Notes: generated from the sequence alone by a model not told the origin. DNA of 64,000 nucleotides from Azolla caroliniana (GCA_043228905.1 JBHGNT010000021.1:4960001-5024000); one strand, 5' to 3'; positions 1,219 through 52,300 are shown, counted from the stretch's first letter. Made by a program: numbers and translations.

Positions 1219-3239
1219 TGTCACGGACACACCAAGCGCGGACTAAGACGAAGCATGGATGATGAGGCTATGACGGAGCGATGATGCGAGGAACTTAAGA
1301 CAGGGAATGACACAAGAGCATAAAGATAGAGATGAAGATCAAGGAGAGAGGATGGGCGAAATGGGAATACAAGATTGATATGTCCATGACTAGCGTTGTT
1401 CACCTTGAATTCCTTCAAGGTGAAGTCAACTATTTATACTAAGCGGCATGCATACTTGTTGCACGCATGTGATACAATAGAGCATGTAGGCAGGAGGTAC
1501 GCATGCATGTGCCAAGTGTAAACAATACAAGGGAGAAATTATGCACATGATGCTAGCTTAAACCTACAATGAGGAAGTATATACATGATTATATGTTAGA
1601 TGTGTTGTTAACACATAACACTCCATTATAACATGGTCATGTCAAGAGTTTGAATCTTGACATTATCCCCCCTCCAACGATGCCTTCCCAAATCGTTAAT
1701 CGTCTTAAGGGTATATTGTTGATGAAAATCTTAGATCACCTCCAAAGTATTTTATAAATCCTAGACAAGGAGTAACCCTTCCACAAGACGAGGTATATAA
1801 CACCAACGGGCATGAGTGACCATGTGTGGTCCTTGCCTAGAACTGGAACACAAATATCAACGGGTGTGAGCGACCATGTGCGGTCCTGACGGGGAACTAG
1901 AACGGTCCCCGTTGAGAGTTGGAACACGAACACCAACGAGAGTGAACAACCAAGGACAACGAGAAATGGAACACGAACGAGTGAGCGACCATGTGGCCCT
2001 CACCGGGAACAGGAACACGAACAGGAGTAATCGACCATCTGCGGTCCTCACCGGGAATTGGAACATGTACAACAACGATCATGAGCGACCATGTCAGTCC
2101 TCACCGGGATCTAGAACACTAACAATAGTTGGAGTGAGCGGCCATGTGCAGTCCTCACCGGAGACTTGAACACGAACAGGAGTGAGAAACCATGCGGCCC
2201 TCACCAGGAACACGAACACGAACGGGAGCGAGCGGCCATGTGCGGGCCTCACCGAGAACACGAACACGAACGGGAGTGTGCGGCCATGTGTGGCCCTCAC
2301 CGGGAAAAGGAACACGAACGTGTGTGAGTGACCATGTAGCCCTCACAGGGAACTCAAACACGAACAGGCGTGAGCGACCATGCGGCCCTCACTAGGAACT
2401 CGAAAACAAACGTGTGTGAGCGACCATCCGGCCCTCACCGGGAACTCGAACACGAACGGGTGCGAGCGACCATGCGGCCCTCACCGGGAACTCGAACACG
2501 AAAACCAACGGGAGTGAGCGGCCTTGTGCGGACCTCACCAGGAACTAGAACACGAACACCAACGGGAGTGAGCGGCCTTGTGCGGCCCTCATCGGGAACT
2601 GAAACACAAACACCAACGGGAGTAAGCGGCCTTGTGTGGCCCTCACCGAGAACTAGAACACGAACACCAATGAGAAAGAAACTAAAAAATTGAGACAATG
2701 AAGCGATGTTGATAATGGTACGGTGACGATGGTAACTCTAGAACCAGGGGCGATGATGGAGACGGGTGATGCTTGTAGTTGGAAGGTGAACAAACTGTCA
2801 CGGACACACCAAGCGTGGACTAAGATGGAGCATGGATGATGAGGCTATGACGGAGCGATGACGTGAGGAACTTAAGACGGGGAATGACACAAAAGCATAA
2901 AGATAGAGATGAAGATCAAGGAGAGAGGATGGGCGAAATGGGAATACTAGATTGATATGTCCATGACTGGCGTTGTTCACCTTGAATTCCTTCAAGGTGA
3001 AGTCAACTATTTATACTAAGTGGCATGCATACCTATTGCACGCATGTGATACAATAGAGCATGTAGGCAATAGGTACGCATGCATGTGCCAAGTGTAAAT
3101 AATACAAGGGAGAAATTATGCACATGATGCTAGCTAAAACCTACAATGAGGAAGTATATACATGATTATATGCTAGATGTGTGGTTAACACATAACACTC
3201 CATTATAACATGGTCATGTCAAGAGTTCGAATCTTGACA
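1219..3239 (-). mobile_element. Non-autonomous chromovirus-derived LTR element (element A): 444-bp LTRs, tandem-repeat interior, chromodomain remnant
   Basis: LTRs 1219-1662 and 2796-3239 (TGTCA...TGACA, about 19 substitutions by eye). TSD GTCGT/GTTGT. PPT reverse complement TTATCCCCCCTCC at 1663-1675. Minus strand ~1700-1800 encodes 'IYLVLWKGYS' and 'DFHQQY'. Confidence 0.92.
1808..2670 (-). repeat. Tandem array of ~17 units of 46-54 bp, each with a GTGAG-GGCC-loop-GG(C/T)C-G-CTCAC hairpin
   Basis: Recurring + strand unit '...gaacacgaac(accaa)cgggagtgagcg(a/g)ccatg(tg)cggccctcaccgggaact...'. Confidence 0.95.
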
Positions 3240-3990: not shown

Positions 3991-4840
3991 CATAACTAAA
4001 CTCGGCTCAAATTCTTCCTCTCCTAGTCCAAAACCCCAACGGTTCCCACCCGACTCACGCAACGATCCGGCGCCAAAAGGTGTGACATCGTTGGTCGGAT
4101 TGTAGTTGCCAATCAAGTTTTATTGGCTTCAACATGGTATGTTTTGTCATGTTAGATATTCTCCAAGTCATGTATTTTGAAAATACGTAGATTGATTCAT
4201 AATTTTCTGTGGTCCGGTAAAACGGAAGACAATGCTTGGTCTAAAGTGAAATGGGACGTAATTACTTTACCCCGCTCTAAAGGGGGACTAGGCATTATTG
4301 ATCCAGTAGACCAATCAAGAGCATTATTAAGTAAGTTGCTCGTTAGAGGATTTACCCCGGGGAAAGAGATATGGAAAGTATTATTGCTTGACCGCTGCTC
4401 AGATTTCTCTCCTCGCTTAGGTGCCCCCTGGTTTAAGGATGTAAATTGGATATTTAGGGAAAATTTTAGAATACCTACAGCTAACAAGTGGGAAGATAAA
4501 TTTATTAGGACATTATTTTCAACATGGAAACAAGTGTTACCTTGTTTGCTTCACAATTGTCATAATACGAACCCATGACCTTATGTTACATGGGTCAAGC
4601 TCTTGCCATTAGACTATATATTGTAATACGAAAGATGTTATTTTCATTTATTATTTCACTATAGAAAATTGATGTATATTCTAGATTTCTCTAGAACATT
4701 CTAGAAACTTCAGGAGTACTCCTGAAAACACTATAAAAGGAGGCACAAGGCATTATTTCGAACCAAATCAGTTTAACGCCAGTCTTAAGCCTCATAGCTA
4801 TTTTGTACTTACTCTTCATATAATATATCATCTATTATCA

Positions 4841-4915
<75 letters not shown>

Positions 4916-4918
<3 letters not shown>

Positions 4919-6027
4919 GGTGTGCATGTGTTCCTTTGTGCCACCCTTTTAGCACACCCTTTTTAGCCATGCCAACCCAAATGGGTTCCATTGTATCAAC
5001 TATAAATTGATTAAGAAGTAAGAAGCTAAGTAGACTGGTTTTGATCTCTTATGTGCATTCCACATATTGGTAGAGATGACGGGGTACCAGTCCCCCACAT
5101 CCAAGCATCCGCCTCTTCCGCTTCGTAGGTAGCATCGCCCTCACCACCATCACCGACACTCTTGTTAGTCTCTTGTAGTAGTATCTCTTCTATTAGCACC
5201 GCCTTAGTTCACTAGTTAGGCCTCCCGATATCCACCACTTCATCATCAACATCGCTTCATTGTCTCTATTTTTTAGTTTCTTTCGTGTTTGTGTTCGTGT
5301 TCTAGTTCCCGATGAGGGCCGCACAAGGCCACTCACACTCCCGTTGGTGTTCGAGTTCCCAATGAGGGCCACACATGGCTGCTCTCACTCCCGTTGGTGT
5401 TCGTGTTCTAGTTTCTGGTGAGGGGAGCATGGTCGCTCACACCCGTTCGTGTTCGAGTTTTCGATGTGGGCCGCACATGGCCGCTCACTCCCGTTCGTGT
5501 TCCTGTTCCCAGTGAGGGCCGCATGGTCGCTCACTCCCGTTTGTGTTCCAATCTTCGGTGAGGACCGCTCACTCCAACTATTGTTCGTGTTCTAGATCCC
5601 GGTGAGGACCGACATGGTCGCTCATGCCCGTTGTTGTTCATGTTCCAGTTCCCGGTGAGGGCCACATGGTCACTCACTCGTTCGTGTTCCAATTCTCGGT
5701 GAGGACAACATGGTTGCTCACGCCCGTTGGTGTTCGTGTTCCAACTCTCAGCGAGGACCGTTCCAGTTCCCGGCAAGGACCACACATGGTCACTCATGCC
5801 CCTCAATCTCTTGTTTCTCGCAGGGGGGAAATGTGGTGTGCATGTGTTCCTTTGTGCCACCCTTTTAGCACACCCTTTTTAGGATGCGTGTGCCCAAAAT
5901 GACCCACCCTTTTAGCACACCCTTTTTAGCCAGGCCAACCCAAATGGGTTCCGTTGTATCAACTATAAATTGATTAAGAAGTAAGAAGCTAAGTAGACTG
6001 GTTTTGATCTCTTATGTGCATTTCACA
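4916..6027 (+). mobile_element. Small non-autonomous TRIM-like LTR element (element B) in the (TA)n tract of the chromovirus 5' LTR
   Basis: LTRs 4916-5064 (149 bp) and 5832-6027 (196 bp, one extra 47-bp unit), TGTGG...CACA. PBS TGGTAGAGATGACGGGGTA at 5068 resembles the complement of plant tRNA-Ala. PPT AGGGGGGAAA 5822-5831. TSD is ambiguous within the TA tract. Confidence 0.9.
5285..5801 (+). repeat. Tandem array (~11 units) of the same hairpin repeat as 1808-2670, in reverse orientation on the + strand
   Basis: Units 'gtgttcgtgttc(t/c)agttcccggtgagggccgcatggtcgctcactcccgtt' are the reverse complement of the element A units. Confidence 0.93.
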
Positions 6028-6238
6028 TTATATATATATCCTTTTCTCTCTTCCTCTCTCGTGAGTCTTATGCATTCCCTTCTTCTTAGTACTAATCTTC
6101 ATAGTACTTCTCTTCTCTAGTACTAATTCTCTCTCTGTTTTAGTACTATTCCTGACAGTTTGAACCGATTTCTCCTTCCCTCCTCGTCATCTTATCCCTC
6201 CTTCCTTTCATACTAATCCTCTTATCCTCCCTAGTAAA

Positions 6239-9200
6239 ATGGCAACTATTAGCGCTCAGGGATACCAATCTGTTTTCTCGGAGCTCCAGTGCTTAAAAGA
6301 GAAATTTGTAGCACTAGAACAAGAAAATCACCATTTGTTGGGGGATCTTCAACAAATAGCGCTAGAAAAACAACAACACGGGGAGCTGACGTAACGTGTA
6401 CAACAACTTGAAGTGACTATTGTATCATTACAACAACAAGAATCAAGCACTCAAGGGATTCACAAAGAACCCAAGATCGGTCTTCCTACAAAATTCGATG
6501 GAACCCGATCACAGTTTAGAGGTTTTCTTAATCAGGTATGTTTAGTGATTCAAATGTGTGCTTCTCGATATCCCACCGATGCATCACGAGTGGGACTAGT
6601 AGGCACTCTACTTCGTGGCACAGCTTTGGCATGGTTTGCCCCCCTGTTAGAAAAAATCTCTCCCTTGTTAAATAATTTTGAAGAGTTTATTAGCAAGTTT
6701 AAAGCCTATTTTGGAGATACTGACAAAGTTAGGACGGCAATCAACAAAATCCGGAGATTGCATCCATTTCGCTACATCAATTGCGTGAGGAAGGATGCAA
6801 GGAAGCAATGTTTATCTTCGTAGTATCAGTAAAACCTTCCAACACCACTAAAGAGGAGTCCTCAGTTCAACTTCCAAAGAAGTATCGTCATTATGCCAAT
6901 GTGTTTGATAAGGTACAAGACAATACGCTTCCTCACCACCGACCGTATGATTGCCCCATTGATTTACAACCGAGAAAAAAGCCACCATGGGGACGATCTA
7001 CAATTTGTCACTGAACGAGCTAGAAGTCCTTCGAGCTATATAGAGGAGAATTTGGCAAACAATTTCATTCGACATTCGAAATCTCCAGCCGGCGCACCCA
7101 TTTTCTTCATCAAGAAAAAGGATGGATCACTTCGTCTCGTCATATACTACCGTGGCTTGAATAAGGTCACCATCAGGAATAGGTATGCACTTCCCCTTAT
7201 CTCAAGTATTTTAGAACAGTTCAATGGTGCAAGGTTCTTCACAAAGATCGACTTACGAGGAGCATATAACCTCGTACGGAACCAACCAAGAGATGAGTGG
7301 AAGACCGTGTTTCGCATTATATATGGGCAATTTGAGTATACAGTCATGTCATTCAGTCTCACTAATGCGCCAACAGTCTTCCAGCTCATGGCAAATCATA
7401 TATTCCGAGATCTCTTGGATGTTTGTTTGATCATCTATTTGGATGATCTACTAGTTTATTCGAAGACCCAAGAAGAGCATGATTCTCATGTACTATTAGT
7501 ACTAAAATGGCTTCGAGAATATGGTCTTTATGCAAAACTAGAAAAATGTAGTTTCAAGTGCAACCAAGTGGAATTTCTGGCTTATGTCATCTCCTCGAAA
7601 GGCATCTCTATGGATCCAGCTAAGGTCAAAACTGTGGTAGAGTGGTAGACTCCACGTTCGTTGCGAGATATGCAATGCTTTTTAGGCGTTGCCAATTTCT
7701 ACCACAAGTTTATACATGATTATTCAAAGATTATTCTACCTCTCACACAACTTATCAAGAAGGGGTAATCATTTGTTTGGTCTGAAGAAGTGGATATGGC
7801 TTTTGAGAGTCTTAAGAAGACATTTACATCAGCTCCTATCCTAGCTCATGCTGATCCGACAAAACCATTCATCATTAAGGCAGACGCATCAGATTTCGCC
7901 TTGGGTAGCATTCTTTCACAACAAGGCGATGATGAAAAGCTACATCATGTGGCTTGATCCGGCAAAACCATTCATCATTGAGGCAGACGTGTCAAATTTC
8001 GCCTTGGGTAGCCTTCTTTCACAACAAGGAGATGATGAAAAGCTACATCCTGTGGCTTTCCACTCACGCAAGTTTGACGTCACCGAAATCAACTATGAAA
8101 TTCACGATAAAGAGCTATTAGCAATAGTGGACTCTTTTATGCAATGGAGGCATTTCCTAGAGGGATCTGAATATCATCAAGTTCGGTGAGCCCAATTCCT
8201 CAAAATTACATATCGTCCTAGGAAGCAGCAAGGGAAGGTAGATGCGTTATCACGACACTCGTATCTGGCACCACGTCCCGGTGAGCCTGCATTCGATAAC
8301 CAAAAGCAAGTAATCCTGGGACTGGCACAACTGCAAGAAACACGGGTTTTCGATATGCCATTGGACTCCCACATTATCGATACCATACGTGGGGACTTGA
8401 AGACAGATGCTTTCGTTCAAGCCATTCTAGCACAAATTGATTCCTCTCGAGCATCTTGTTCACAGTCGCAACAACCAGGTACGGATTATCGACAATTCGA
8501 ATGTCATGATGGATTACTATTCTTTAAGAAGCTCTTGTATGTTCCTAATGGCTCTTGTCACCTTCAAGTAGTCCAAAATTGTCATGACACATATACAGTT
8601 GGGCATTTTGGTAGTACTAAAACGTTAAATTTAGTATAACGATCATTCTGGTGGCCTCATATGCGACGATTTGTCAAAGATTATGTTCGGACATGTGATA
8701 CATGTTTGCAGAGCAAAGATGCCAAGACATCATCTATATGGTTTATTGGAACCATTACCAATTCCAACCAAGTTGTGGCAATCCATTGCTCTAGATTTCA
8801 TCACAGATCTTCCTGTTTCTAAGGGATTTGATGCGATCTTAACAGTAGTAGATCGATATACAAAGATGGCCCATTTCCTACCATGTACTAAGGAAATCAC
8901 TAGAGAAGATACTATCGACAATTAGGTCCTTTCCGTACTATCGGAAAAATTAATGATGTCATTTTTCATCTCGATTTCCCTCCGCAACTGTGGATACATC
9001 CGGTGTTTCATAGTTCTCTCCTAGAACCCTATCAGAACAGCACCATCCCAGGTTGTATTAAACAACCTCCACCCCCGATCGAACTTGAAGATGGACATGA
9101 GTATGAGGTTGCCGCCATCCTCAATTCGAAGATTGTTCGCACCAAGCTCTGCTAGGATATAGTCCCAGCGAGCGTACTTGGGAACCAATAGAGAATGTGA

Positions 9201-9290
9201 CCAATGCTCATGCTCTTCTTGAAGACTTCCATCGTCAATCTCTAGACAAACCGGGTCCTCAATCCAAAACGACTCGTGACACTCGTCGTT
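6239..9290 (+). pseudogene. Chromovirus gag-pol remnant (gag, RT, RNase H, partial integrase, chromodomain)
   Basis: gag 'KEPKIGLPTKFDGTRSQFRGFL'; RT '[11 protein letters not shown]...KIDLRGAY...YLDDLL'; RNase H 'EADVSNFALG...NYEIHDKELLAI'; IN 'HDTYTVGHFG...ALDFITDLP...[11 protein letters not shown]'; chromodomain 'EYEVAAILNS...TWEPIENV...LLEDFH' (~9098-9250). Has stops, frameshifts, loss of protease and most of the IN core, and a 103-bp tandem duplication (7852-8057). Confidence 0.92.
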
Positions 9291-9842
9291 TTAAAGGGGG
9301 GATAGTTTCATGATATGGCAAGATTCCAACCCATGACCTTATGTTACATGGGTCGAGCTCTTGCCATTAGACTATATATTGTAATACGAAAGATATTATT
9401 TTCATTTATTATTTCACTATAGAAAATTGATGTATATTCCAGATTTCTCTGGAACATTCTAGAAACTTCAGGAGTACTTCTGAAAACACTATAAAAGGAG
9501 ACACAATGCATTATTTCGAACCAAATCGGTTCAACGCCAGTCTTAAGCCTAATAGCTATTTTGTACTTAAGAATTTGATGACATTCAAGTCGACCTTAGA
9601 TGATGGCACTATTCCTCAAGTTCCACTACGTCAGAAACCAAAGTTCAAATATTTGAGTATTCTCATAAATTAAATGACATGTATTTAACTAATAAAACAT
9701 AAAATTTTGTAAACCATCCTTATGATTTTCCTACAAAAAACTAGCTAAACAAATACCTAATTAGTTGTGGTCATTTTAGTAGCTAATTAGCTAATAATAA
9801 TAGTGTTTCCAGTCACATGCTTTTACCCATCATCTTTTATCA

Positions 9843-9924
<82 letters not shown>

Positions 9925-12900
9925 CATAGATTGACCCATGTGTGATATGTGTGGTATTCGACATCCGCAATATTCGTAGTATTCGAGAATATAAAATTGC
10001 TCCAAGAATATTATAAAACCATTCGTTTATAGAAAATAAATTTACATAATAAAAATTATTCAATTCACTTAAAAAAAGAAAGGAAAAATCACCAATTAAC
10101 AGAAAAATGGAAGGTCTTCAAAATCACACTAACATAAGAAAGAAAAGTTTTAATTAAAGTGATTATGAACCGTTATATTCTAATTTCTAAGTTCTAGGTT
10201 CTAACTTCTAACTTCTAAGTAATGCTTTGAAATTTAAGAGTCTATGCACTATCACATTCATCATCCGTATCTTCAAGCTCATCACTAATGTCCTTATGAG
10301 CTTCATTTTCTTCAATAGCTTGATTTTGCATTCTCAAAAGTCTCTCATCATCTTCTTCTTTGTTGATCATATCTAATGTTGCTTCAATTAGGCATAATCC
10401 CCTTTCCCTTATTCTTCTAATGAGACAATGATTTGTATGTATGTAAACCAATTTCTCAACATGAGCATGAGTCAATCTATTTCTTTTTTTTGTATGTATC
10501 GATGAGAATGTACTCCAATTTCTTTCACAAGAAGAGGCACATGAACCTTGAGAAAGCACACGAATTGCAAGCCTTTTTAAGTTTGGAGTGCTTGCTCCAA
10601 ATGTTTCCCACCACTTAATTGCATCATGCATTCTAGTTGGATCATTTGCCATAGGAACTTGAAATGAACTCTTTTGTTGAGTTTTATAATCATAGAATTC
10701 ATCTAATAAAACACCACATAAAGGTATATCACCATTAGTATACCACATAATAGTTTCCATCCAACTTGTATTCAGCTTCTCATCAATATCTTGAATTTTT
10801 TCTCTCCAAATTGGATGCAAAATAAAGCTAGTTGCATGCAATGGTGAATGTAGCATTGTCCATCTTTGCATACATATTCCCCGAATTTCATCAAGCAATA
10901 AATTATCTACATCTTCGATGTGGTTTATTTCTTCTATCATACGATGAGTACATTCATAAATTAAACCCATGGTTGCACCGTCTCTATCCGCCAATCTAAG
11001 AACTTTTAGGATTGGCTTGCATATCTTTACGATCTTCTTTATATTTGCCCAAAAAGAAGCATCAAGTATAATTGAAACTATTTCTTCTCCTAGTTGTGTT
11101 TTTTATCCTTTCCATTGACACCATTGTTCACTAACCACCATTCTTCTTAATCCACCTTTGACTCTGTCATCCAATAAGTGAGACAACATGATAAAACTAT
11201 AGGCAAATCTAGTAGTGGAAGGCTTTAACAATTCTTTCTCACTAAACTTACAAAACATTGCCAAAGAATTTTTTTTTCGTGTAATAAACACAATTACCTT
11301 TGTAGCTAATTTCAAAACATCATGAACCCAAGCACATTTTCCAATATCTTCAAACAACAAATCGATGCAATGACATGTGCATCTGGTAAAAAAGATCATG
11401 GGCCACTCTTTCTCTATCATCCTCCTAGCTACTACACAATTAGTTGCATTGTCCATACAAACTTGCACAACATTTGATGGGCCAATATCAAGAATAACAT
11501 CCTTTAAAATCTTAAAGATATACTCTCCCGATTTATATTCTCCACTAGTGTCAACTAATTTCAGAAACACAGTGCCATACGCAGAAGTAGCCATGACATT
11601 AAGTATTGGTCTATTCTTGGTATCTGACCAACCATCACTCACAATAGTGCATCCAATAGTTTTCCATTTTTCTCTAATTTGCATAATCTCCTTTTCAACA
11701 TATTTCACCTCTTCATTCAAGTGCCTTTTGCGCAATTGATTAGGAGATGGTGGCTCATAAGAAGGCCCAACAAGTGCCACAGCTTTTATTAATTCACAAA
11801 AATATGTACTTCCCACTTTTACATCCGGTATATCCTCTACAAAAAAAACCTCTTGATTGCTTCATCAGCATTTTTATCAAGTTGCTTTTGCCATAACAAC
11901 TTCAAAGGTTCAACATTGTCTACTTTCATCTTTTTACTTGTTGATGCATTACCAAACGATAATGAAGGCGTTTCATTAATAGATGTTGATTCCACATTCA
12001 TATCAACATTTGTGCTACAATTTTCAGCATTGCATTCCATTGATGACTCACCATTCATGTCAACATTTGCACAACCAGATACCATTTTTTGTACTTCAGC
12101 TTTTATAACAGCATCAATTTGACGGCATTTGTCAACACCTAAACCTTTCAAGCCCAGTAAGTGAGCTCTAATTCGAAAGGGCCCACCAACAAATACATGG
12201 TGACAATGTTTGCATTGAACAACAAGCATACCCTTATCATGTTTTCTCAAAACGGTCACATGATTCCATTTGAAGCTCTTTTGCTTCACCATTTAGTAAA
12301 TTAACCTTCAATTGATCCTGAAAGAGATTAATTTGATACCTAAAAATGAATTAAAACCATCGTTAGCCAAAATCTTCATTAATCCTACCTCTAATTAAAA
12401 TCTATTATGATTGCATAATCCTACAATGCTAGCATGAATAAATCACAGAAGATTGGACAACATTGAGATGAGAAGAGAGAGTTAATGAGCTTTGGCAAAA
12501 CCCTAATTTTCAAGGAATAATTTTAAGAGACTTTTTGATCCAAAATCTTCATTAATCCGGCCTCTAATTAAAATCTAATTAAGTTTGGATGATCCTACAA
12601 TGCCTCCAATTAAAATCTAATCTTATGATCATTGCATGAATAAATCATGGATTATTGGACAACTAATTTTTCCCAAACCCTAATTTTTAGGAAGCAATAT
12701 ATAGAAAGAGGTCTCAAATAGAATGCCTCCACAACCAATTTACTCAAGATACTATGACTAAATTATGCAACAAAATACACTATATTAAATGACCCAATTG
12801 ATAAAAAACCCATAGCATATTCATAATCCATGCAATTATTTTCAATATGTTTTCATCACCATAGCTCCTAACATCTTCATATTCCATGGAGTTATTTCCA

Positions 12901-13431
12901 TATGATCCTGATTCCTCATCATTACCAAGCATAGGTGGGGAGATAGGATACCTTTTTCTCAAAATTGGTTCAATTACACAGCTTATCATTTTCTTTATAT
13001 GCCTTAGTAGGACTGTCACTAACCAATGGTCATGGTTATAAACTTATATGCATTCAAAGGAGTAAAAAGAGTAGAAATTCATTATCCAGACACAATTATC
13101 AATAGCAGGAGGTTGGGACGTCAAACATCACAAAGCATGAGGAAATGTAGAAGAGAGACAGTCTTACCGAGTTTTGCCCAAACGTATGTCTTACGCAGGA
13201 GGAGGAAAGGACATAGGCGAACCCTAAATTTGAAGGAGTTGATATTTGATGGTGTTCACTATTCCCTATTGATTGCTATTCCTTGTAGAGCGCTTCCCTA
13301 TTCGCTACTCATTGAATACATTTTTTCAAAAAATAATAGGGAAAAAAAGTTAACGAATATTGGAAGATGTATTCTTATGCATATTCGTTGGTATTCGTGG
13401 GGGAGGCCTGACGAATGCGAATATGTCAATC

Positions 13432-13435
<4 letters not shown>
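9925..13435 (-). mobile_element. hAT DNA transposon (3.5 kb) in the (TA)n tract of the chromovirus 3' LTR
   Basis: 11-bp TIRs CATAGATTGAC (9925) and GTCAATCTATG (ends 13435). TATATATA flanks fit an 8-bp TSD. Clustered subterminal TATTCG motifs at both ends. Confidence 0.93.
10242..12292 (-). pseudogene. hAT transposase (BED finger, DUF659-like catalytic region, C-terminal dimerisation domain), broken by a frameshift and a stop
   Basis: 'WNHV...CKHC...RAHL' (12292-11837); 'GCTIVSDGWSD...VQVCMDNATN...CTCHCIDL...TRF' (11816-11103); 'WWETFG...LAIRVLSQGSCASSCERNWSTF...RNRL' (10994-10242). Confidence 0.92.
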
Positions 13436-13462
<27 letters not shown>

Positions 13463-16400
13463 CTTCTTTTCTCTCTTCCTCTCTCGTGAGTCTTACGCAA
13501 TCCCTTCTTCTTAGTACTAATCCTCATAGTACTTCCCTTCTCTAGTACTAATTCTCTCTCTGTTTTAGTACTATTCCTGACAGCAATAAACCTAAACCCA
13601 AACATTATCTTGAGAATCTTAGACAAAGGATAGTCTAGAATCCATTGTTTACAACATCAGATGGTTTAGTGTTGGGTTCTAGACAATGGTTATCATGGGG
13701 GAAAATGACAAAAGGTCCTGCAAAAACAATTCAGACATGGCAAAGTTTTTTATCACGTTCATGGGAAGAGCAAAAAAAAATCCTATGTAGTATGCATGGT
13801 GGCCAAATAATGTATCAACAAATTCAAGAAGCTTTGAGTAGACTCCCCATACCACCCAATAACTCTAACCACAGATGGGTTGGGGTTTATTCAAGGTTGG
13901 AAGTACTCTTGGTTGTTAAGGGGTATTCAGATGATAAGACCTACTGGTCTTTTGAAGTGGATGAAGCAAACCAATTGACTCAATCGGGGGAAATGAGGAT
14001 AGATTACCCTTATGGTATGGAACACAAGAAAAAGGTCATCGGATATGTTGGCCATAAATGGTATATATTGATCCAATGATTGAGGAAATAAGGACAGATT
14101 GGAAGTTGTGGGTGTTGGGTAGAAAACCGGTATTTAGATTAGAATGGGATCCAATTGATTATCAATGGACAAATCCCTTTATGGGTAACAAGTTCAATTT
14201 CTTCCAATATTCTGTACAGTTAGGAAGACATGTGCTTTCATATACACGTGATGTGTTACCGGACGCATTTCAATATTGGAATCAACAAGGTATTACTCCC
14301 TAATTCCTTGCAAACTCCTATGTTATATTATGGGCAAGAAAACAACCATACCAAATATTGCATGTACAATGGTTACTTGTACACCGAGCCTTGCCGGTTG
14401 GCACATGGTTGCATAGGATGGGAGTAGCTTCTATGTGTGCATGATGCCATTTACAAATGAAAACTCAAAAACATTGCTTATGGGAATGCACTAAGTCTCA
14501 GCTGATATGGCAACGTCTCCTTAGAATTTTTGCTAACTATTTCCCCCCATTGGTTTTCACTTGGGGCACGGTGGTTTGGACATCTCTTGTCCGTGATGCA
14601 TTTCATCATGACACTTAATCTATGGACCATGATTTTTACACTAAATCTGGAAGTGTTCATACATTACCATTGTTGTCATTACAGTTTGCAGCAACACGAA
14701 AGGAAGTCCAACCAGTATGGGAGATACTGAGTAGTACCACTATATATCACATTTGGAAGGTTAGGTGTTCTCTCATTTTCCATCAACTTAAAACACCACC
14801 GGCTAAATTAGTTTCAAATATTTGGTTAGACATAGTTCATACTTTGAAGGGACAATGGGATGGTATCATTGGAGATTCTGATGCTAAAATTGCTCAACGG
14901 CATGAGTTCATCATTATATGGAAAGCTACTCCATTCATGACAGCCAATTATGGTATTCCTTATTGGCATTTTCAACCTCTGAAATGGTTGTTTCCCCCAC
15001 CGATCACATAGAATTTAAAATCTTGTAAAGATGGTTACACTAATGACAAGATATCTTCTTTAAATAAATAAAAAACAAATAATGACACTCTAGATATCTC
15101 TCCTTGGATTCAACTTGGAATTATCATTTTTGACATTGTCTTCAACGAGATTTTCTATCGTGTCTTAATTTTGCCTTATTATCTTCTTTCACAACAAGAA
15201 TTCACTTTGAGATGAATTGTTAGATTATTTGAAATTTTCCATCTCAAGCAAGGTGGTCATCCACAATAATATGGTTGTTTTGCGAGAAGTAATGTTCTCC
15301 CACAATCTCAATGAAGCTAATAAAATAATGGCTACATAGCTAGACCATCTTCATCAATTTAAATCTCGACACTAAGAAGTTGAGCATTGCACATCTAGAA
15401 CTTGCTTACATGACTTGAGAATTTATAATATTCTAACGTCTTCAACTCGAACAACATTTTCTTCAAATATATAACCTATTTGTCAAAATTTTGATATATT
15501 TAGTTTCTCCTATTACTTCACCAAATTTCAACCCAAAACTTCATTTCTAAAGCAAGATGGGGTCTTCTTTTGCTCATATCTTTGCTTGTAATTCTTTCCA
15601 ATCATAATCTTTCCTGTCTTTGGGATTTATGTTGGCTAAAGCCTTATATACACCCAATTGTGCCAACACATACTTTGGAAAAAATGATGAAGTTGGTATT
15701 TTCATCGAAAGGCATTGGGTCAAACATCATACTAGCCATTGCTCTAATACCAATTATTATGTGTAAAGTAATTATAATACCATAAACAAAGATTATGTGA
15801 AAATAAAGGCAAAACAAAACAAAATGAAAATGAGGACATGAGAAATTTACACAATTTGACCATTTGCCTATGTTCATGTGACATTGTTATTTCCACTCAT
15901 AAGATTACACGTAGGATACAAAAGAAAACTCACAATTTGTTGTCAACCTTATTTCCCTAAAAAAAACTTTGGTTTTCAATCTAATTTGGACTTCCCTAAA
16001 AAATACACTCGGGTTTTCAATTTAATTTGGACTTAATTATTTGCTAAACTTGTTTATCTCTTATCTCTTTACCTCTTTGATATTCAATCACAAAGAATGG
16101 ATTATTATTTATAGGCTTTTTAAATATAACATGCATGAGACACTTGTTTGGCATGCAAATGCAAACAATGGTTCGCTCCTTATCAAAAAAGACTCAGTTT
16201 AATTGAAGCCACAATGGTGCATTTGCTAACAATAATCATATTTTGTAATGTGATATATGAAGGTTCATGCAACATTGGTATCTCAACCCTTGGATCGTGG
16301 AATCTTAGATAAGCTCCTTTGTCCTCTTCAGAAATTTAATGTCAATAGCATTCTAATATGGTGATCATTGAATCCTCGTTAACAAAATCTTATTCACTAC

Positions 16401-23733: not shown

Positions 23734-26700
23734 ATGAAAACAAAGTGTTCCAAAGAAGAGAAATTTTTCTCTTCTTCTTTCTGCTGCTCAATGAATTCTT
23801 CCTCCAGCCCGTCCGTCTCTTCTCGAGCCCGAGATTCTATATTCAATTATGATATAAGTCTTCTGAATCAAGAAGAAACTGTGCTTGACTTGCCGTGGAT
23901 TTCAACTTCTGATCAGAAAGAGATCAGAATTGAGAAGAAAAACAGGAAAGACGATGAAGAAGAAAGTGAGGTTCAAAGACGGGCTCTTGGGAGACTGAGA
24001 TGCTCGATTCTCAAAGAATGGAGCATAAATTCGATAACTCGATTGATGTGTGGCGTCGTTTGCAATCCTCTTCTCAGCTCAAGGTTTGCTTTAATGGTAT
24101 GCTTTCTACTACCTTTTGGGGGTTCAAGAATTGCATTAATTGTATACTTAATACCTGTTTTTGCGTTTTATGGTTAAATTCGAGTGTTTCATTAATGGGG
24201 TTTACACATTTGCTGTGAGGATTGGCATTTGTAGTATCTTTTGTAGCTGAAGGGTTTAAACCCTGTTTAGGGTTTTAGGGTTTAGAGTTCAAGTCTTGGA
24301 ACCCTCTTCTTAGATCAATGTTTGCGGTAATAGTATGTTTATAATAACTATTTAGGGCTATGCAATTAAAGGGTTGCGTTAATGGCATGCTTATGATATT
24401 TGTTTTAGGGTTTAGTGTTGCGTGATGTAGGTTCAAGTTTTAGCAGTTAAGTTTATGTTTTAGGGTTTTAAGATTTTACTACTTATTATAATATCGATTC
24501 AATTTGAGCGTTAGGGTGGTTCAGGTTTTAGTTTACGGGCTTATTATAGCAGTGAAGAATTCGGGGTTTAGTATTCTTTTAATGTCGATCTATGTTTTGG
24601 TCCAGGGACTCAGAATTTAGGGTTTCATGCTTAAGGGCTTTGGTTTATTAAAATGTAGAATTGAGTGAGTTTTTTGGGTTTAGGGTTTTTTAGCATTTAG
24701 GATTTATTATATTGTTGATCTGTTATGGGTACCCTTCTTGTCTGATTAGATTTCGTATTTTCCATTTCTTATCATTATTATTATTCCTTATGGGTTGAGG
24801 TTTTATTGCTTATGATTTATAGTTTAAGGCATTCTTATACATATCATCTATTTCAGGTATCTTTCAGTTCAGACCAGACTCACCAATCTTTGTTTATTAT
24901 TTCTTCTTACATACATCAGGGATTACTGGCATTACTTCTGATCTTGATGACAGCATTTACTTGGGTGCTTACGTCCACAAATGTGGAGCATTCCGTGAGC
25001 TCAATCGCACTGAAATTACGTTCTGAACTGCTCTTCCAGGCAGGAGACAGAGTGAATGCTGTGCTTCAAGGGAGTAATGCTTCTGCAACTTCTTTGGCAA
25101 GGTTTTTGAGTCCATTCATTAATCAAGACAACATATCCTCCCTTTCTTACATTCAAAATCAGGTAAGCTTGGACATTGCATTTTTGAAGATGTAGGATTT
25201 TGGGTTTTAGACATTGAGGATTAAGGATCTTAGTATTAAGGAATAATGAGTAATATTTCTGGTTTAGGGGTTTTGGTTCTAGGTTTTAAGGGGGGGGTGG
25301 GATAATTTAGGGGAGTGTGTTACACTATGACTTTATGTAAGTGTTCAAGGTTGTTGGACAAATTCTTGTGGTGTCTCAGGTGGAGCCTGCTCTGTTCTTA
25401 ACTTTCTCAATCCTTTCGAGGAAAGCACGAGTCACATTCCTCGGTGCAAATGGATTGTTTCGATCGTATGTTGCAGATGCCACAGGGGTATGTCTACTAT
25501 ATGCAAACACTTCATATCTCTTCCCCAACTCATCTGATAAGATTTCAGAGCCATCGGCAATTCCATGGAAGGAAGGCGAAAATTTAACGATTACTCGCCC
25601 ATGGTATAGATGGTATTATCAGAGAGTTGATGTAATCTCAGGTGCATTGATAGGGGAAGCCACATCAATTACTCCAATACCCTATTGGGATATCTTGCCA
25701 TTGAAGAATTCATTGAAAGGTCACTCTACATCGGTGAGTTGGGGACCTTCTCCCATTGATATAAATGAGATTTCATTCTCATTCTTGTCCCCTGTTCAGC
25801 AAAATTTGAGAGAAAATCCAGTCGGGGTTGTCTCAATTGGGGTTTCTATGGCAGACATAATTAGCATTATTGACCAGTTTGAGCTTTATGGTGGGGCAAT
25901 ATACATTGCGACAAATGATGGAAAATTGGTGGCTCAAACTAGATTCAGTTCTTTGCCATTGGACACTGATAATAGCAGCTCAATATCAGCGATTACAAAT
26001 TCTAACAATCCCATTGTTGCCGGGGCTGCTCAATATTTGATGCCATATATCCCTTCCATTTTAGCTATGACAAACCGCTCCTTCACAGCAGAGGATGTTG
26101 ACATTCATGGTACCCGCTACATGATCAATAGTGCACCTCTTCATTTAGCAGGGGCTACATTGGTAATTATCCTTTTTCGGCCTCATCTGTAGCAATTTTG
26201 AATGAAGTATAGAAATTAGTGTTTGAATCTTTTTTCGACTTCAACTAGTTGATCTTCACCATTCATCTATCTTGTGATAAACATAATGCAGGTGTGTACA
26301 GTAATAGTTCCCTACCACAGTGTCTGGGGCATGACGGAAAAGCGAAGCCAAATGACCTTAGCAGTATTGATTGCATTGGGTACTTGTATGGGTCTAGTAG
26401 GATGTTTCTTCATTATTCTATTAACCAAGGGAATCAGCAACGAGATGAGGCTGCGGGCGTCATTGATTCAGCAGCTTGAAGAGACAAAACGGGCTGAATC
26501 AAAGAGCAACCACAAGAGCCTTGTGTTTGCAAACATGAGTCACGATCTTCGCACTCCGTTGGCTGCCATTCTTGGCCTTATTGACCTGTGTCTTTGTGAT
26601 GCTACTGAGTTGTCAGAATTGGAGTCAAACCTCATACAAATGAAATCATGTGCCACCAACTTGTTAGGTAAGGCTTTTTTGAGCTTGGTTTTTTCCTTGA

Positions 26701-29375
26701 GGTGGTTATTGAGTGTGGTTTCTAGTCTCTAGCTCTAATAAAAAGCTTATAATAACAACTTGTACTTTTTTATAGGCATCTTGAACTCAATTTTGGACAT
26801 GAGCAAGATTGAGGCTGGCAAACTTCAATTGCAAGAGTCAGGGTTTGATTTAGTCCGAGCTCTTGAGGAAGTAGTAGATACTTTCTCTGTCTTGGGCTTG
26901 AAGAAAGGTGTGGAAGTTGTCTTAGATCTGTCAGATAGTTTTGTTGAGAAGGCATCTTGGATCTTTGGAGATGGAGGTCGTATAAAACAAATCGTTGCCA
27001 ATCTTCTTAGTAATGGTGTTAAATTTACGTCAGAAGGACATGTTGTATTGCGAGCATGGGTGAAGCCATCTGACATAGCCAATGCTAGACACCAAGGAAA
27101 GCTGATGGGTTGGCCATGGAATCAAATCCTGAGGTCTCCTTCAAGAGAGAAGGATCTGCATAAACTTGTTCAAGGTCTTCCTCACCATGAACATGAAGAT
27201 GGTTACTTACAAATTGAATTTGAGGTGGATGACAGTGGAAGGGGCATACCAAAGGAGCGATGGAAGTCTGTATTTGAAAACTTTGTTCAGGTTGAATCAT
27301 CTGGACCCAGGATTTATGATGGCACAGGTCTTGGCCTTGGCATCGTCAGATCATTGGTAAGTTATAGAACTCCTAGATTGATTTCATACCCATTTTTACA
27401 GCACATTCTTCTCATGTGTTTTATCCTAACAGGTAAGATTGATGGGCGGAGAAATTGACATAATTGACAAGGACGAGCCTGGTGAACCTGGAACTCGATT
27501 TCGATTCAATTTGATTTTAAAGTGTGGTAAGAATCCTGACATAAAGCCAAACGAGGATTGTGTCACAAAAAACATTCAGTTGCACAATGAAGCTTCTTTG
27601 GAATATTCATATGGCGTCGGTAATGGGCCGATCTCTCCTCAATGGCAGCTTGATTCTTCAGGGGCTTTTGCTTTTTCTCATGGTTTAGATCTCACTGGCT
27701 TCAATACTCCACCTATTATGGAATGTGTCCATGTGCTGCTTGCTATGCATGGTCAAGCAGGAGAGCAAATAGTAAAAAGCTGGATGGAGAGGAGGGGTTT
27801 ACAAGTGTGTAATGTAGGGTCGTGGGATGAACTGAGTCCAGTAGTTGAGAGAATGAAGCATGACATGTTTTCTGAAAGTGAGAGTTCTTCGGGGAGGCCT
27901 GGATACAGGTCACCAGAAAGTCGCATCTATGACTCGTGGGGAGATGAACTTGATATAAGAGGTCTTCCGAGAATCCAAATCGGAACAGACACTTGTATCG
28001 AAGGTATGCATATATCGGATGAGGCTCGATGTGCTCACAAAATGAGTCATAGAACATCACATGCCCATCTTCTTCTGATCGTAGATGTGGCTATGGCAAC
28101 GGGGGGCATATCTGATTTGTGTTCAGAGTTAGAGGACATTCTCATGGATGCTGATTGGCCTGCTACTTTTAGAGTTGTATGGTTAGTCAATGTTGATACA
28201 CCAAGTGTTGATATTCAATACTTGAGAAGGCAAACCCATGTTTGCCATCTTATTTTGCATAAGCCATTGTATGCTTCTCGGTTGAAACGAGTTTGGAGTT
28301 TGCTTCAAGAACTAGTAGGGAATGCTGAACGCGATTCTTTCGAAGTTGAGCCTTCTCATCTACATTCAGGAAATTGCGAAAAGGTTGATTTGAATGCTTC
28401 AAACTCTTTATACAAGTCACTTTCTTGTATGAGTACATTCCAAGAGGGAGCAATAGATTTGCCTTCAGGTCTTGTGGGCAAAGCAAGAACCGCAACTCTT
28501 GTAGATAAGAGTGGACCTAGTAGCTCATCTACCTTACTTAGTATGGCTCAAGGAGGAAAACAGCAGCAATTTGATCAAACTGAAAGTGCTAAAGAATCAG
28601 GAAACAAAGATTTTTCATCAATTGAACTTATCTCTCACCGGAATGTGGACAATCTAAATAGAAGTGTAGATGGTCTTTCTGCTTCGAGGGATAAATCTAG
28701 GCTTGCTTTATCAGCAATGCATATACTTGTGGCTGAGGACAATCTGATCCTTCAACGTTTGACTACAACACAGCTCACTAGGCTTGGGGCTAGTGTTGAG
28801 TGTGTTGATAATGGTGCTGATGCTGCTCGTTTAGTCCTTGAGAATCTGTACAGGAATCAGTCATCTTCTCATTCGAGTGTGCAAGAGGATGTTCGAAAGA
28901 ATCACTTGTTCGACCTCGTGCTTATGGATTGTGAGGTATACTAGTTGTTCATTATTTTACATCATAGTTTCAACGAGTCCAGCATCATCAACATACTTAG
29001 GATGTGTGCCATGTAGTGCATCCTAATGCTGTAGATTCTATTGTAAAATATATAAGCACCTTGCTCTCAGATCAATACTGCATTCATTACCATTGTTGCT
29101 GAACTGTATTTATTTATTTCTCTGTATGATTGGTATTGCAGATGCCCATTTTGAATGGATATGAAGCTACACAACGCATTCGTGGTGAAGAAACAAGGTA
29201 TGGTGTTCGAACACCAGTGATTGCTTTAACAGCTCATGCAATGGCCCAAGATGAGAAGAAATGCATTGAGGCAGGGATGGATTTCTACTTGACCAAACCA
29301 CTCTCGATAGATGTCTTACTTGATGTGGTTACGAAACTACTACATAGCCGAAGTAATACTGATGTGGTTACATAG
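23734..29375 (+). CDS. CKI1: CKI1-like hybrid sensor histidine kinase, ~1360 aa; exons 23734-24096, 24920-25162, 25380-26162, 26292-26667, 26776-27356, 27433-28935, 29142-29375
   Basis: GT-AG introns with consistent phases. Two TM helices flank an extracellular region. H-box 'FANMSHDLRTPL', N-box 'NLLSNGVKFT', G1 'DDSGRGI', G2 'GTGLGLGIV', receiver 'ILVAEDN...LMDCE|MP...GYEATQRIR...YGVRTPVIALTAH...KP'. The YGVRTP and DCxMP context is CKI1-like. The exon 1 start codon is the least certain part. Confidence 0.9.
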
Positions 29376-49323: not shown

Positions 49324-52300
49324 TGTTGAAGACAGCGCTCGGCCACAACCGAGGAATAGGATCTACTCACAGAAAACGGGAAATACAAGAATGCACGAAA
49401 ACAATAAAGAGAAGGGTACACTGGATGTTTTACGTGGAAAACCCTAAATGGGAAAAACCACGGGAGTGCAAGACTCCAACTATCACTATACGCGGGGAAT
49501 GTACAATGGCGAGCTGCAAGGCGACGACCTTGAGCTCGCTGTCCTCGCCACAGGCGGCGGTATTACACAGAGGCGTCGACCTCTTCCTTCCTCTTTCTCT
49601 CTCACTCTCTCTCGGCTGCTCTCACTTCGCTTCCTCTCAGTGGAAAACAGAAAAAAATGAGCAACAACAACATAAAACTGTTTGCCCTAAGTCATACTTA
49701 TACACATATGACTTTCGGGCTATTTACAAATATAGCCTCAAGGGCCCTTGGCAAACATATTCACAAATATGTCCCCGCATCCGGATCTCTCTCCGGGTAC
49801 ATTCGTCATCCGGCTCCGTAACCGGGGTCTTCATCATCCGGATCCGTATCCGGGTACTCTTCATCCGGCTTCATGCCGGGTACTCTTCATCATCCGGTTC
49901 CGTAACCGCAACCGGGCTTGCCGTCATTCATCTCCGGACATCCCATCCGGAGGGACCGAAATCCCAACAAACTCCCCCTTCACTTTGGCATGGGATGTCT
50001 CTCCAATCCGACTCTCTTCCGGCACGCTCCCAGCTTGTCGGGTGTGAGTACTTTGGTCAGCATATCTGACCCGTTCTCTTCCGTGTGGATCTTCGTCAGC
50101 ACGAACTCCTGGTCTTCTATCCTTTCCCGGATCCAGTGATATCTTCGCTGGATGTGCTTCGTCCGGGAGTGATAGGCCGCGTTCTTCGCAAGGTGGATGG
50201 CACTCTGACTGTCACAGTAGAGTCGGTACTCCTCTTGCCGGATACCGAGCTCTCTAATGAAGTCCTTCATCCATATTATTTCCTTGCCGGCTTCAACAGC
50301 CGCCATGTACTCCGCCTCCGTGGTTGACAACGCAACCGTCTTCTGCAGCCTCGACTGCCACGAAACAGCTCCACCTGCATACGTCATCACATACCCTGAT
50401 GTGGACTGGCTGGTATCTGCATCAGCCGACATATCCGAATCGGTAAAGCCGTCGAGTTCGGGCTTACCGGAGCCGAATCGGAGGCACACGTTTGCTGTGC
50501 CCTTCAGGTATCGGAGTATCCACTTGACCGCGTTCCAGTGCTCTTTGCCGGGATTGCTCATGTACCGGCTCACCACTCCAACTGCATATCCTATGTCCGG
50601 TCTTGTACACACCATTGCGTACATCAAGCTTCCGACGGCAGAGGCATATGGTACTTTCATCATGTCCTCCTTCTCAGCCTTTGTCTTGGGGCTTTGCTTG
50701 CTGGACAACTTGCAGTTTGCCGGTAGGGTTGACCCGACCGGTCTTGCTTCCGACATGTTGAACCGGTGAAGCACCTTTGTCACGTACTTCTCCTGTGACA
50801 GCCACAACTGCTTCTTCTTCCGGTCCCGGATGATGTGCATCCCTAGTATTTGCCTCGCCGGACCCAGGTCCTTCATTGAGAAGGTTCGGTGAAGCGCTTT
50901 CTTCAGCATCCGTATCTTGACCTGGTCCCGTCCGACGATCAACATGTCGTCCACGTACAGGAGGAGTATTAGAGAGTCTCCTCCTTCGAACTTCTTCACA
51001 AACACGCAGTGATCAGACTGCGTTTTGTGGTACCCTTCGTCGGTCATGAAGGAGTCGAACTTCCGGTACCATTGCCGGGGAGCCTGCTTCAGTCCGTAAA
51101 GGCTCTTCTTCAACCGGCATACCAGGTGCTCCTTCCTTTTCTTCTCGAATCCTTCCGGTTGCTGCATGTAGATCTCTTCTTCGAGGTCACCGTGAAGGAA
51201 TGCCGTCTTCACGTCCATCTGTTCTACCTCGAGGTCCATACTTGCCGCTATGCTCAGCACCGTCCGGATGGAGGTCATCTTCACTACCGGGGCAAATATC
51301 TCGTCGAAGTCGACGCCCTTCTTCTGCTGGAACCCCTTCACCACGATCCTGGCTTTGTATCTTGGGGGGTTTTCGGCATCTCCCGGTTTCAGCTTGAACA
51401 CCCACTTGTTTCGAAGTGCCCGCTTTCCTTTCGGCAACTCCACAAGTTCATATGTGTGGTTCTCATGCAGGGAATCCATCTCCTCCTGCATGGCACTTAA
51501 CCACCTGCGGCTATGGGTGTCAAGCTTTGCTTCTTCAAAACTCTCCGGCTCCCCCTCGTCGGTTAGCAGCACGTGCTCTGGTTCCGGAAATCTCCGGGGG
51601 GCCCTTCTCTCTCTTAGAGGATATCTCCGTTCCGGAGCTTCGGTAACCGGCTCCTCCGTTTCCTCTTCATCCGAATCCATTTCGGGATCGGGGCCGGTTC
51701 CGGTATCAGTTTCATCTTCCTCGGCCGGTTCTGTTTCTTCACCGTCTTCGGCCGGATCCTCGAGTGCTAACCGGTCCCTTGCCGGTCGGGACTGCTCCTC
51801 GTAGAGTTGATTCTCACCGGTCGACTTGGAGCTCTTCATCTTCTTCTCCGACTCCCAGTCGGCGAGCGTCTTGTCCTCCATGAAGATGATATCTCGACTC
51901 CTGAACATCTTCTTGTCGACCGGGTCCCATACTCGGTAGCCGAACTCGTCGTCGCCGTAACCGAGGAATATGCATGGCCGGGTCTTTGGATCTAGCTTTC
52001 CTCTCCGGTCCTTTGCCACATGCACATACGCGAGACATCCGAACACCTTCAGATGCCGGTAGGACACTTCCTTACCGGTCCACACTTTCTGCGGCGTGTC
52101 TCCGTCCAAAGGTACTGAGGGTGATCTATTTATCACATACGTCGCCGTCGACATTGCCTCAGCCCAAAACCCCTTGGGTAATTTCGCATGCGCCAGCATA
52201 CTCCGGACCCTCTCCATTATGGTCCGGTTCATCCTCTCGGCCAGCCCGTTCAGTTCCGGCGTCTTCGGCACAGTAAACTCGAGCCGGATTCCCTTCGAGC

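What the first reader, a model, noticed from the sequence alone, without database searches (positions are those of the whole stretch)
6158..9543. Second chromovirus has the same self-priming geometry with a different, co-varying sequence
Seen: the 5' LTR is followed by GT-TTGAACCGATTT (6160-6171). Its 12-nt complement AAATCGGTTCAA is in the 3' LTR at 9523-9534, 33 nt after TATAAAA (9490); the 5' LTR copy at 4765-4776 has two transitions. In both this element and A, the primer ends in and continues as CAACGCCAGTC, and the PBS sits after TGACA-GT. Primer and PBS differ between the two families but stay complementary within each. Inference: this is compensatory evolution of a self-primer duplex around a conserved cis motif that may direct primer cleavage.
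Basis: partly seen in the sequence, partly recalled or inferred. Interest (0 to 1): 0.75.

Follow-up and report, generated by a model that had tools for sequence, protein, structure and literature searches.

The report
Self-priming jumping genes in a fern
This decayed jumping gene belongs to a large group, likely in a fern genome, whose primer site pairs with the predicted start of its own RNA in every family examined, so these elements likely start copying themselves without a tRNA, a known yeast trick already predicted for their moss relatives, and scars in young copies suggest the primer site is likely recopied from the primer each cycle.

Summary
6160-6171 complements 9523-9534; the 5' LTR copy carries two decay transitions. 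The element is a decayed Tf1/sushi-side (Tcn1-like) chromovirus, 4558-13582, with insertions in both LTRs. 'Element A' is a non-coding relative.

Covariation is real. About 1,050 such 5' junctions exist in the genome, and 17 primer types occur here and in metagenome contigs. With junctions found by anchors only, 279 of 280 pairs are Watson-Crick. One position splits 453 C:G, 478 U:A, 34 discordant.

Two corrections. The motif is CAA|CRCMAGTY, and most of it pairs with the LTR end; only a bulged C and a 2-nt loop need another explanation. 'Compensation' is likely templated: in young copies the 2-6 nt right after the PBS are hypervariable while the flanks barely vary, as expected if plus-strand DNA copies the primer to its 5' end.

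Self-priming is proven for Tf1 and already predicted for moss and club-moss Tcn1; the scan noted moss cases before. New here: a fern host (a PCR survey found none), the junction architecture and the scars. Cleavage and RNA start are untested.

The parts
4553..4557 (+). 5' target-site duplication ACAAT (3' copy GCAAT at 13583-13587, one transition)
4558..6157 (+). 5' LTR (TG...TGACA), interrupted by a nested LTR element at 4916-6027
4732..4738 (+). TATA box of the 5' LTR
4765..4776 (+). 5' LTR self-primer copy, decayed by two transitions
6144..6159 (+). LTR end plus GT spacer; predicted partner of the post-primer motif (2-bp extension and second helix)
6160..6171 (+). 12-nt primer-binding site TTGAACCGATTT; starts TTG, not the TGG that pairs with a tRNA CCA end
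6239..6760 (+). decayed gag (Ty3_capsid, DUF4939); a deletion follows that removes the rest of gag and part of the protease region
7043..8186 (+). decayed RT (RVT_1) and RNase H, with a 103-nt tandem duplication at 7852-8057
8190..9307 (+). decayed integrase (internal deletion), SH3_Tf2-1 and chromodomain (part deleted near 9150)
9293..9305 (+). polypurine tract
9306..13582 (+). 3' LTR in pieces (9306-9569, about 9826-9924, 13436-13582), split by an unidentified insert and a hAT transposon at 9925-13435
9490..9496 (+). TATA box of the 3' LTR
9523..9534 (+). self-primer sequence AAATCGGTTCAA as kept in the 3' LTR; predicted first 12 nt of the RNA
9535..9542 (+). post-primer motif CGCCAGTC (group form CRCMAGTY): predicted bulged C, 2-bp extension, 2-nt loop, start of second helix
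1219..3239 (-). element A: non-coding 2-kb element, 444-bp LTRs 95.7% identical, 11-nt primer (2983..2973) and PBS (2793..2783)

Best explanation
This is a decayed chromodomain-bearing Ty3/gypsy retrotransposon whose primer-binding site complements a 12-nt stretch 33 nt after its own TATA box, and its lineage likely primes reverse transcription Tf1-style with a piece cut from the predicted 5' end of its own RNA. Shown: the 11-12-bp complementarity, its covariation over 17 primer types, an invariant CAA end, pairing potential of the next bases with the LTR end, and a hypervariable 2-6-nt spacer right after the PBS. Inferred steps: (1) Pol II starts at the primer's first base. (2) The RNA folds into primer:PBS helix, bulged C, two more pairs with the GT spacer, a small loop, and a second helix with the LTR end. 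(3) The element's RNase H cuts after CAA, by analogy with Tf1. (4) The primer stays on the minus strand; plus-strand synthesis copies it to its 5' end, adds a few untemplated bases, and this copy becomes the progeny PBS. A new primer base would thus be written into the PBS, with selection then keeping the perfect duplex. Confidence: about 0.9 for self-priming, about 0.6 for templated renewal as a main cause of the covariation, about 0.4 for the bulged C guiding the cut.
For: Anatomy and domains. Genome-wide: 1,051 TATA-motif-LTR end-TTG junctions, control 0, 60 of them outside this lineage; nine family-level perfect pairs. Copy-level 2x2: C:G 453, U:A 478, U:G 14, C:A 20. Metagenome relatives: motif-free scan hits 34 of 79 loci on the sense strand (one an edge artefact) against 2 of 79 antisense. 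Anchor-only scan: 35 true junctions, 279 of 280 Watson-Crick at positions 4-11, no G-U. At least 32 paired changes on the RT tree of 27 loci. Start-site signs: helix 11-12 bp in 35 of 37, C|A at -1/+1 in 33 of 37, TATA to primer end 43-45 nt in 33 of 37. Second helix: 182 of 296 cells paired against 162 +/- 4 permuted, 0 of 5,000 reaching it. Spacer after the PBS: 8 forms in 9 copies, 7 in 11, 9 in 20, 11 in 18, against 1-2 forms per 4-nt flank window in the two youngest groups. Three recombinant LTRs carry primer base 5 with U3, not with R-U5. RT groups away from green-plant chromoviruses, and nearest named hits are vertebrate and fungal. Tf1 precedent: passages of PMC7175516, PMC11042837, PMC3035444.
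Against: No RNA start, cleavage product or cDNA was observed. Family A shows no spacer variation (17 of 17 identical). No recombinant shows a PBS converted against its own flanks; in one (L309) the PBS follows the internal-region parent, not the R-U5 donor. The recombinant signal rests on three elements, one found by a search that required the C state, and a crossover anywhere in a 24-nt identical stretch gives the same pattern. The third duplex of the Tf1 'pretzel' was not found (mean z 0.07; 1 of 39 below -2). In this lineage the second helix is weak (predicted probability 0.01-0.78). The C:G to U:A change lies in a CpG on both sides, so decay could feed it. Many metagenome loci are close kin of this genome's families (one RT identical), and permutation tests ignore relatedness. 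No control for spacer variability in a tRNA-primed young family was available.
Confidence: 0.8

Rival explanations
1. Self-priming is right, but primer and PBS covary only through ordinary compensatory selection: independent second-site mutations restore each pair, and the PBS is inherited from the RNA template.
For: Selection for a perfect duplex predicts the same end state. The second helix, which cannot be templated, also covaries (A-U 16, G-C 15 of 37 at one register). No direct conversion event was caught, and family A has no junction scars.
Against: The central helix has no G-U at family level (0 of 280) while neighbouring pairs tolerate it (16 of 37 at +2, 8 of 37 at +8). U:G copies (14) do not exceed C:A copies (20). 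Hypervariable bases begin exactly at PBS+1.
Confidence: 0.3
2. The conserved post-primer motif is a sequence signal read by RT/RNase H or Gag that sets the cut, independent of pairing.
For: C+1 is invariant (37 of 37) and predicted unpaired; C+4 and A+5 are kept in 31 and 33 of 37 without a partner; the CAA:TTG end is invariant while the eight adjacent pairs vary.
Against: R+2 pairs with U in 34 of 37, C+3 with G in 37 of 37, and GTY with RAC, never C-A at +8. Their partner is the LTR end, which integrase constrains anyway (Sushi 3' att motif CNTNACA, PMC3601003 passage).
Confidence: 0.3
3. A host tRNA or tRNA fragment primes at this site, and the LTR complement is a by-product; TTGAACC could pair with a T-loop-like GGTTCAA (T-loop and B-box consensus recalled, from no call).
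For: The B and D primers end in GGTTCAA.
Against: The PBS starts TTG, not TGG. Most of the 17 types lack GGTTCAA, yet each matches its own LTR. Another chromovirus in the same genome (L056), which groups with green-plant RTs, has an ordinary tRNA-Met-type PBS upstream of its RT.
Confidence: 0.04

Closest known systems
Plant Tcn1-clade chromoviruses (Neumann et al. 2019, PMC6317226: passages and one row of Additional file 5; Novikova et al. 2010, PMC2864245: passages and section 7)
   Same: Chromodomain-bearing Ty3/gypsy, 5-bp TSD, no tRNA PBS, PBS 0-5 nt after the LTR complementary to the LTR; self-priming predicted for 83% of 1,500 elements.
   Different: Described from mosses and club-mosses only; a PCR survey of 26 ferns and horsetails found none. 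The host gene here points to a fern. The text read gives no junction motif, covariation or junction scars. Additional files 1 and 3, which list the elements, could not be read and may contain such sequences.
Tf1/Tf2 of Schizosaccharomyces pombe and the Tf1/sushi group (passages of PMC7175516, PMC11042837, PMC4600332, bioRxiv 2022.12.06.519325; the primary Levin papers were not held)
   Same: First 11 nt of the RNA pair with the PBS and RNase H cuts between bases 11 and 12; about half of Tf1 cDNA keeps a PBS copy at its 3' end; a flanking duplex between the LTR end and sequence after the primer; Tf1 RT adds untemplated bases.
   Different: Tf1's PBS begins ATAAC directly; here it is GT then TTG with an invariant CAA|CRC junction. 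Only two of the three 'pretzel' duplexes were found. Nothing is shown biochemically here.
Fern chromovirus clades Galahad and Mordred (PMC2864245 section 7; PMC3350952 passages)
   Same: Chromoviruses of ferns and lycophytes; SM2-Galahad has a group I chromodomain.
   Different: Selaginella Galahad elements have a tRNA-Met PBS; this lineage has none. No reference sequence was available for a tree.

Membership tests
Chromovirus (Ty3/gypsy) | gag, RT, RNase H, integrase order with a C-terminal chromodomain; TG..CA LTRs, 5-bp TSD, PPT | tested here: met
   Pfam hits in that order incl. SH3_Tf2-1 and Chromo; ends, TSD and PPT
Tf1/sushi group | RT groups with fungal/vertebrate chromoviruses rather than green-plant ones | tested here: met
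   Named hits: amphibian and fish 50-59% against algae and seed plant 40-52%; basal relative 70-81% to frog and fungi against 51% to a seed plant; AU test rejects joining this lineage to 12 green-plant-side RTs, p=0.005. No outgroup; the group's own support is 86/84
Tf1/sushi group | PBS complementary to the 5' end of the element's own RNA instead of a tRNA | tested here: met
   Complementarity and covariation; that the stretch is the RNA 5' end is inferred from spacing and scars
Tf1/sushi group | Three-duplex 'pretzel' leader | tested here: inconclusive
   Central and LTR-end duplexes supported; third not detected with a 25-nt post-PBS duplex test, mean z 0.07 over 39 sites; the published figure was not seen
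Tf1/sushi group | RNase H cleavage of the RNA releases the primer | not testable with these tools
   Needs RNA or biochemistry; three recombinants are only consistent with it
Tcn1 clade | RT-RH-INT falls in the Tcn1 clade with reference Tcn1, PpatensLTR and SM-Tcn1 | not testable with these tools
   No named Tcn1 reference appeared among 120 listed of 3,911 hits, 120 of 4,992 or 10 clusters; the REXdb fasta was too large to read
Tcn1 clade | Group I chromodomain with aromatic cage | tested here: met
   Tyr/Trp/Tyr positions read by eye in relative P0015 (86% RT identity); the window copy keeps both Tyr and has lost the Trp segment. Not unique to Tcn1
Tcn1 clade | Plant hosts limited to mosses and club-mosses (published range) | tested here: not met
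   Neighbouring host kinase exon: ferns 42-52%, bryophytes 31-38% (16 hits); one gene only
tRNA-primed plant chromoviruses (Tekay, Reina, CRM, Galadriel, Galahad) | PBS starting TGG, complementary to a tRNA 3' end | tested here: not met
   PBS starts TTG in all 17 types; no genome-wide tRNA list was searched

The most novel reading that the evidence does not exclude
A Tf1/sushi-side chromovirus lineage with about a thousand full junctions has radiated in a fern, where it was thought absent, and uses a clade-wide RNA junction (CAA, bulged C, two pairs, small loop, helix on the integrase end) that places the RNase H cut. Its PBS is rewritten from the primer every cycle, and untemplated bases fixed right after the PBS record the RNA's 5' end in the genome. 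Copy populations alone would then map both ends of a self-primer and tell self-primed from tRNA-primed elements in any genome.
Probability: 0.45. Interest if true: 0.62.

Novelty: new member of a known kind. Interest (0 to 1): 0.45.

Why it matters
Self-priming has been shown experimentally only in fission yeast; for plants it is a BLAST prediction. This case adds covariation over 17 primer types, a defined junction structure and genomic scars, which give exact positions to test: RNA start at primer base 1, cut after CAA. It extends the plant range of the group to a fern, which bears on the proposed horizontal transfer from fungi. It also warns that perfect primer/PBS covariation need not reflect compensatory selection. 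The core mechanism is known, so interest is moderate.

Tried and rejected
RNA evidence: no RNA holder listed with raw reads; only contigs with small shares, which cannot show starts, so none were laid. Rfam: 0 matches at E 0.1 in three loci. PDB: only Ty3 and one further RT, no closer relative. ESM Atlas: nearest clusters mostly chordate or basidiomycete, a lead only. A 200-kb flanking sample held no TATA-anchored motif, so the elements are unevenly spread. A search for families with C or G before CAA gave 8 matches, all variants of A or B. The Watson-Crick permutation (135 of 136, null maximum 98) is circular because sites were chosen for pairing; it was replaced by the anchor-only count. Own-genome anchor rows: 53 of 82 perfect, 589 of 656 cells Watson-Crick, 16 G-U, 51 mismatched; these include decayed copies and some 3' or solo LTR ends followed by chance TT. 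Third duplex: not found. PBS conversion in recombinants: uninformative. B-box/T-loop reading and a tRNA-like CCA end in CRCCA: rejected or unsupported, since they are not shared by all types or have no pairing partner. Five primary Tf1 papers or reviews were not held. Literature searches that found no description of the motif, the scars or a fern self-priming element: and the supplement search; subscription journals (Butler 2001, Goodwin and Poulter 2001, Novikova 2008) are not covered and may describe the junction.

Full report
OBSERVATION. The 5' LTR ends at 6157, GT follows, and the 12-mer at 6160-6171 complements 9523-9534, 33 nt from the TATA box at 9490. The 5' LTR copy (4765-4776) has two transitions. 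Element A is the minus-strand element 3239..1219 with an 11-nt pair. The motif occurs 4 times in the window at up to one mismatch against 0.37 expected.

ANATOMY. The element spans 4558-13582 with TSD ACAAT/GCAAT. A non-coding LTR element sits in the 5' LTR (4916-6027). An unidentified insert and a hAT transposon (9925-13435) split the 3' LTR. The comparable LTR parts are about 96% identical: 10 mismatches in 242 nt, and 4 plus a gap in 131 nt. The inside is a decayed gag, RT, RNase H, integrase, SH3 and chromodomain. This copy is dead; its 5' primer changes look like decay after insertion. Element A has no coding match.

HOST AND PLACEMENT. A host kinase exon in the window is 42-52% identical to fern proteins and 31-38% to bryophyte ones (16 hits). 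I had first assumed a moss; earlier scan notes said fern, and I tested that with this one gene. The RT's named relatives are amphibian and fish proteins at 50-59%, ahead of algae and a seed plant at 40-52%. A basal relative is 70-81% identical to frog and fungal RT cores and 51% to a seed plant. In a 59-row tree the 35 rows of this group (34 loci chosen for their self-primer junction and the window RT) form one weakly supported group (86/84), apart from a green-plant group (99/96). Forcing this lineage into the green-plant group is rejected at p=0.005. A second chromovirus from this genome falls in the green-plant group and has a tRNA-Met-type PBS upstream of its RT. No named Tcn1 reference was obtainable, so 'Tcn1-like' rests on group placement, chromodomain type and priming geometry.

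COVARIATION. TATA..CAACGCCAGTC has 3,153 matches in the genome, control 0. 1,051 continue to an LTR end and TTG, 60 outside this lineage. Among 82 junctions defined by anchors, nine family-level perfect pairs appear; 53 of 82 rows are perfect at positions 4-11, the rest being decayed copies or false junctions. Sister non-coding families A and C differ at four paired positions. For one position in this lineage the genome-wide counts are C:G 453, U:A 478, U:G 14, C:A 20. In 79 metagenome loci found by RT (the best 80 of 488), a motif-free scan found a TATA-anchored self-primer in 34 on the sense strand, one an edge artefact, and 2 on the antisense strand. An anchor-only scan gave 36 rows, one a false second anchor; the other 35 have 279 of 280 Watson-Crick cells and no G-U. 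These rows are partly redundant and many are close kin of this genome's families. In all 17 primer types occur, with at least 32 paired changes on the RT tree of 27 loci (loci chosen for pairing).

THE MOTIF. Over 37 non-redundant flank sets the primer ends CAA and continues C(37) R(21 A, 16 G) C(37) C(31) A(33) G(33) T(36) Y(37). Folding places C+1 as a bulge in most sites. R+2 pairs with the U of the spacer in 34 of 37 and C+3 with its G in 37 of 37. GTY pairs with RAC of the LTR end, and the second helix continues with covariation: 182 of 296 cells against 162 +/- 4 permuted and 77-128 when slid (relatedness not modelled). It is strong in A and C and weak in this lineage. Its partner is the att end (compare Sushi CNTNACA). 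So the motif is mainly structure. The unpaired C+1, the CA loop and the invariant CAA:TTG end are what a cleavage signal could use. A third duplex was not found.

SIGNS OF THE PRIMER'S ENDS. The helix is 11 or 12 bp in 35 of 37, begins at C|A in 33 of 37, and ends 43-45 nt from the TATA box in 33 of 37, as expected for an RNA start. In 60 copies picked from the first listed of 931 concordant matches, the bases between PBS and leader are hypervariable: 8 forms in 9, 7 in 11, 9 in 20 and 11 in 18 copies (2 dropped for lack of an anchor). Flanking 4-nt windows show 1-2 forms in the two youngest groups and 1-4 in the others, one window 8. The changes include G and A, not only T-run slippage. This is what plus-strand synthesis would leave if it runs to the primer's 5' end, adds untemplated bases and is then extended; Tf1 RT has such activity and Tf1 cDNA carries a PBS copy at its 3' end. 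Against: family A is invariant there (17 of 17), and no tRNA-primed control was available. For the other end, an unbiased search for LTRs with U3 of one subfamily and R of another found 2 elements (3 LTRs), all with primer base 5 from the U3 parent. In both, 22 of 22 U3 markers come from one parent and 23-25 of 25 R-U5 markers from the other; a third case appeared. This fits loss of the primer from the template but also any crossover in a 24-nt identical stretch. None shows a PBS converted against its flanks.

MECHANISM. Best reading: Tf1-type self-priming with templated renewal of the PBS, and selection keeping the duplex perfect. Shown: geometry, covariation, pairing potential, scars. Inferred: start site, folding, RNase H cut, copying. 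Rivals: pure compensatory selection (0.3), motif as a sequence signal (0.3; not exclusive of the best reading), tRNA priming (0.04).

WHAT IS KNOWN. Neumann et al. 2019 predict self-priming for 83% of 1,500 Tcn1 elements from mosses and club-mosses (passages; supplement row; element tables unreadable). Novikova et al. 2010 saw no PBS in SM-Tcn1 and no Tcn1 in 26 ferns and horsetails. The Tf1 mechanism and the 'pretzel' come from passages of secondary sources; the primary papers were not held. Passages of PMC8282616, PMC13469084, PMC3350952 and PMC12786077 added nothing on ferns or the junction. Eight searches found no account of the motif, the scars or a fern case; subscription journals are not covered. 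The scan itself noted self-priming moss elements on other DNA and nothing on this sequence.

VERDICT. Real, well supported, and a new member of a known kind. The fern host, the junction architecture and the scars raise it above routine. Interest 0.45.

Noticed in passing
window 4916-6027 (+): Non-coding LTR element nested in the 5' LTR (LTRs 97.6% over 125 nt, TGG-type site at 5068, purine tract 5822-5831). It shares a 46-54-nt internal repeat array, 73-78% identical, with self-primed element A although its LTRs and priming site differ.
   Followed up: partly
window 9925-13435: hAT transposon (Dimer_Tnp_hAT, DUF659; matching inverted ends) inserted in the (AT)n tract of the 3' LTR.
   Followed up: partly
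window 9570-9826: Unidentified insert of about 250 nt in the 3' LTR, absent from the 5' LTR.
   Followed up: no
window 3005-2977 (-): In family A the primer overlaps an 11-bp inverted repeat whose other arm lies upstream of the predicted start; the 4-nt loop appears in both orientations among copies.
   Followed up: no
window 49324-54734 (-): Ty1/copia-type element by domain order read from the sequence, 1,447-codon open frame, LTRs identical over 300 nt, tRNA-Met-type PBS.
   Followed up: no
window 24746-29000 (+): Host hybrid histidine kinase exons; nearest named relatives are fern proteins.
   Followed up: partly
L037 (G000:C18:10448266-10448321): A family A element with a 5-nt duplication at the predicted cleavage junction in both LTR copies, so probably made during reverse transcription.
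   Followed up: no
L178 (G000:C8:11441077-11441283): Element with C-family-like sequence upstream but A-type primer and PBS, a possible intermediate between the sister families.
   Followed up: no
L206-L284: The base after the duplex is C in 19 of 27 metagenome junctions, as would follow from untemplated C opposite a cap (that RT behaviour is recalled, from no call).
   Followed up: partly
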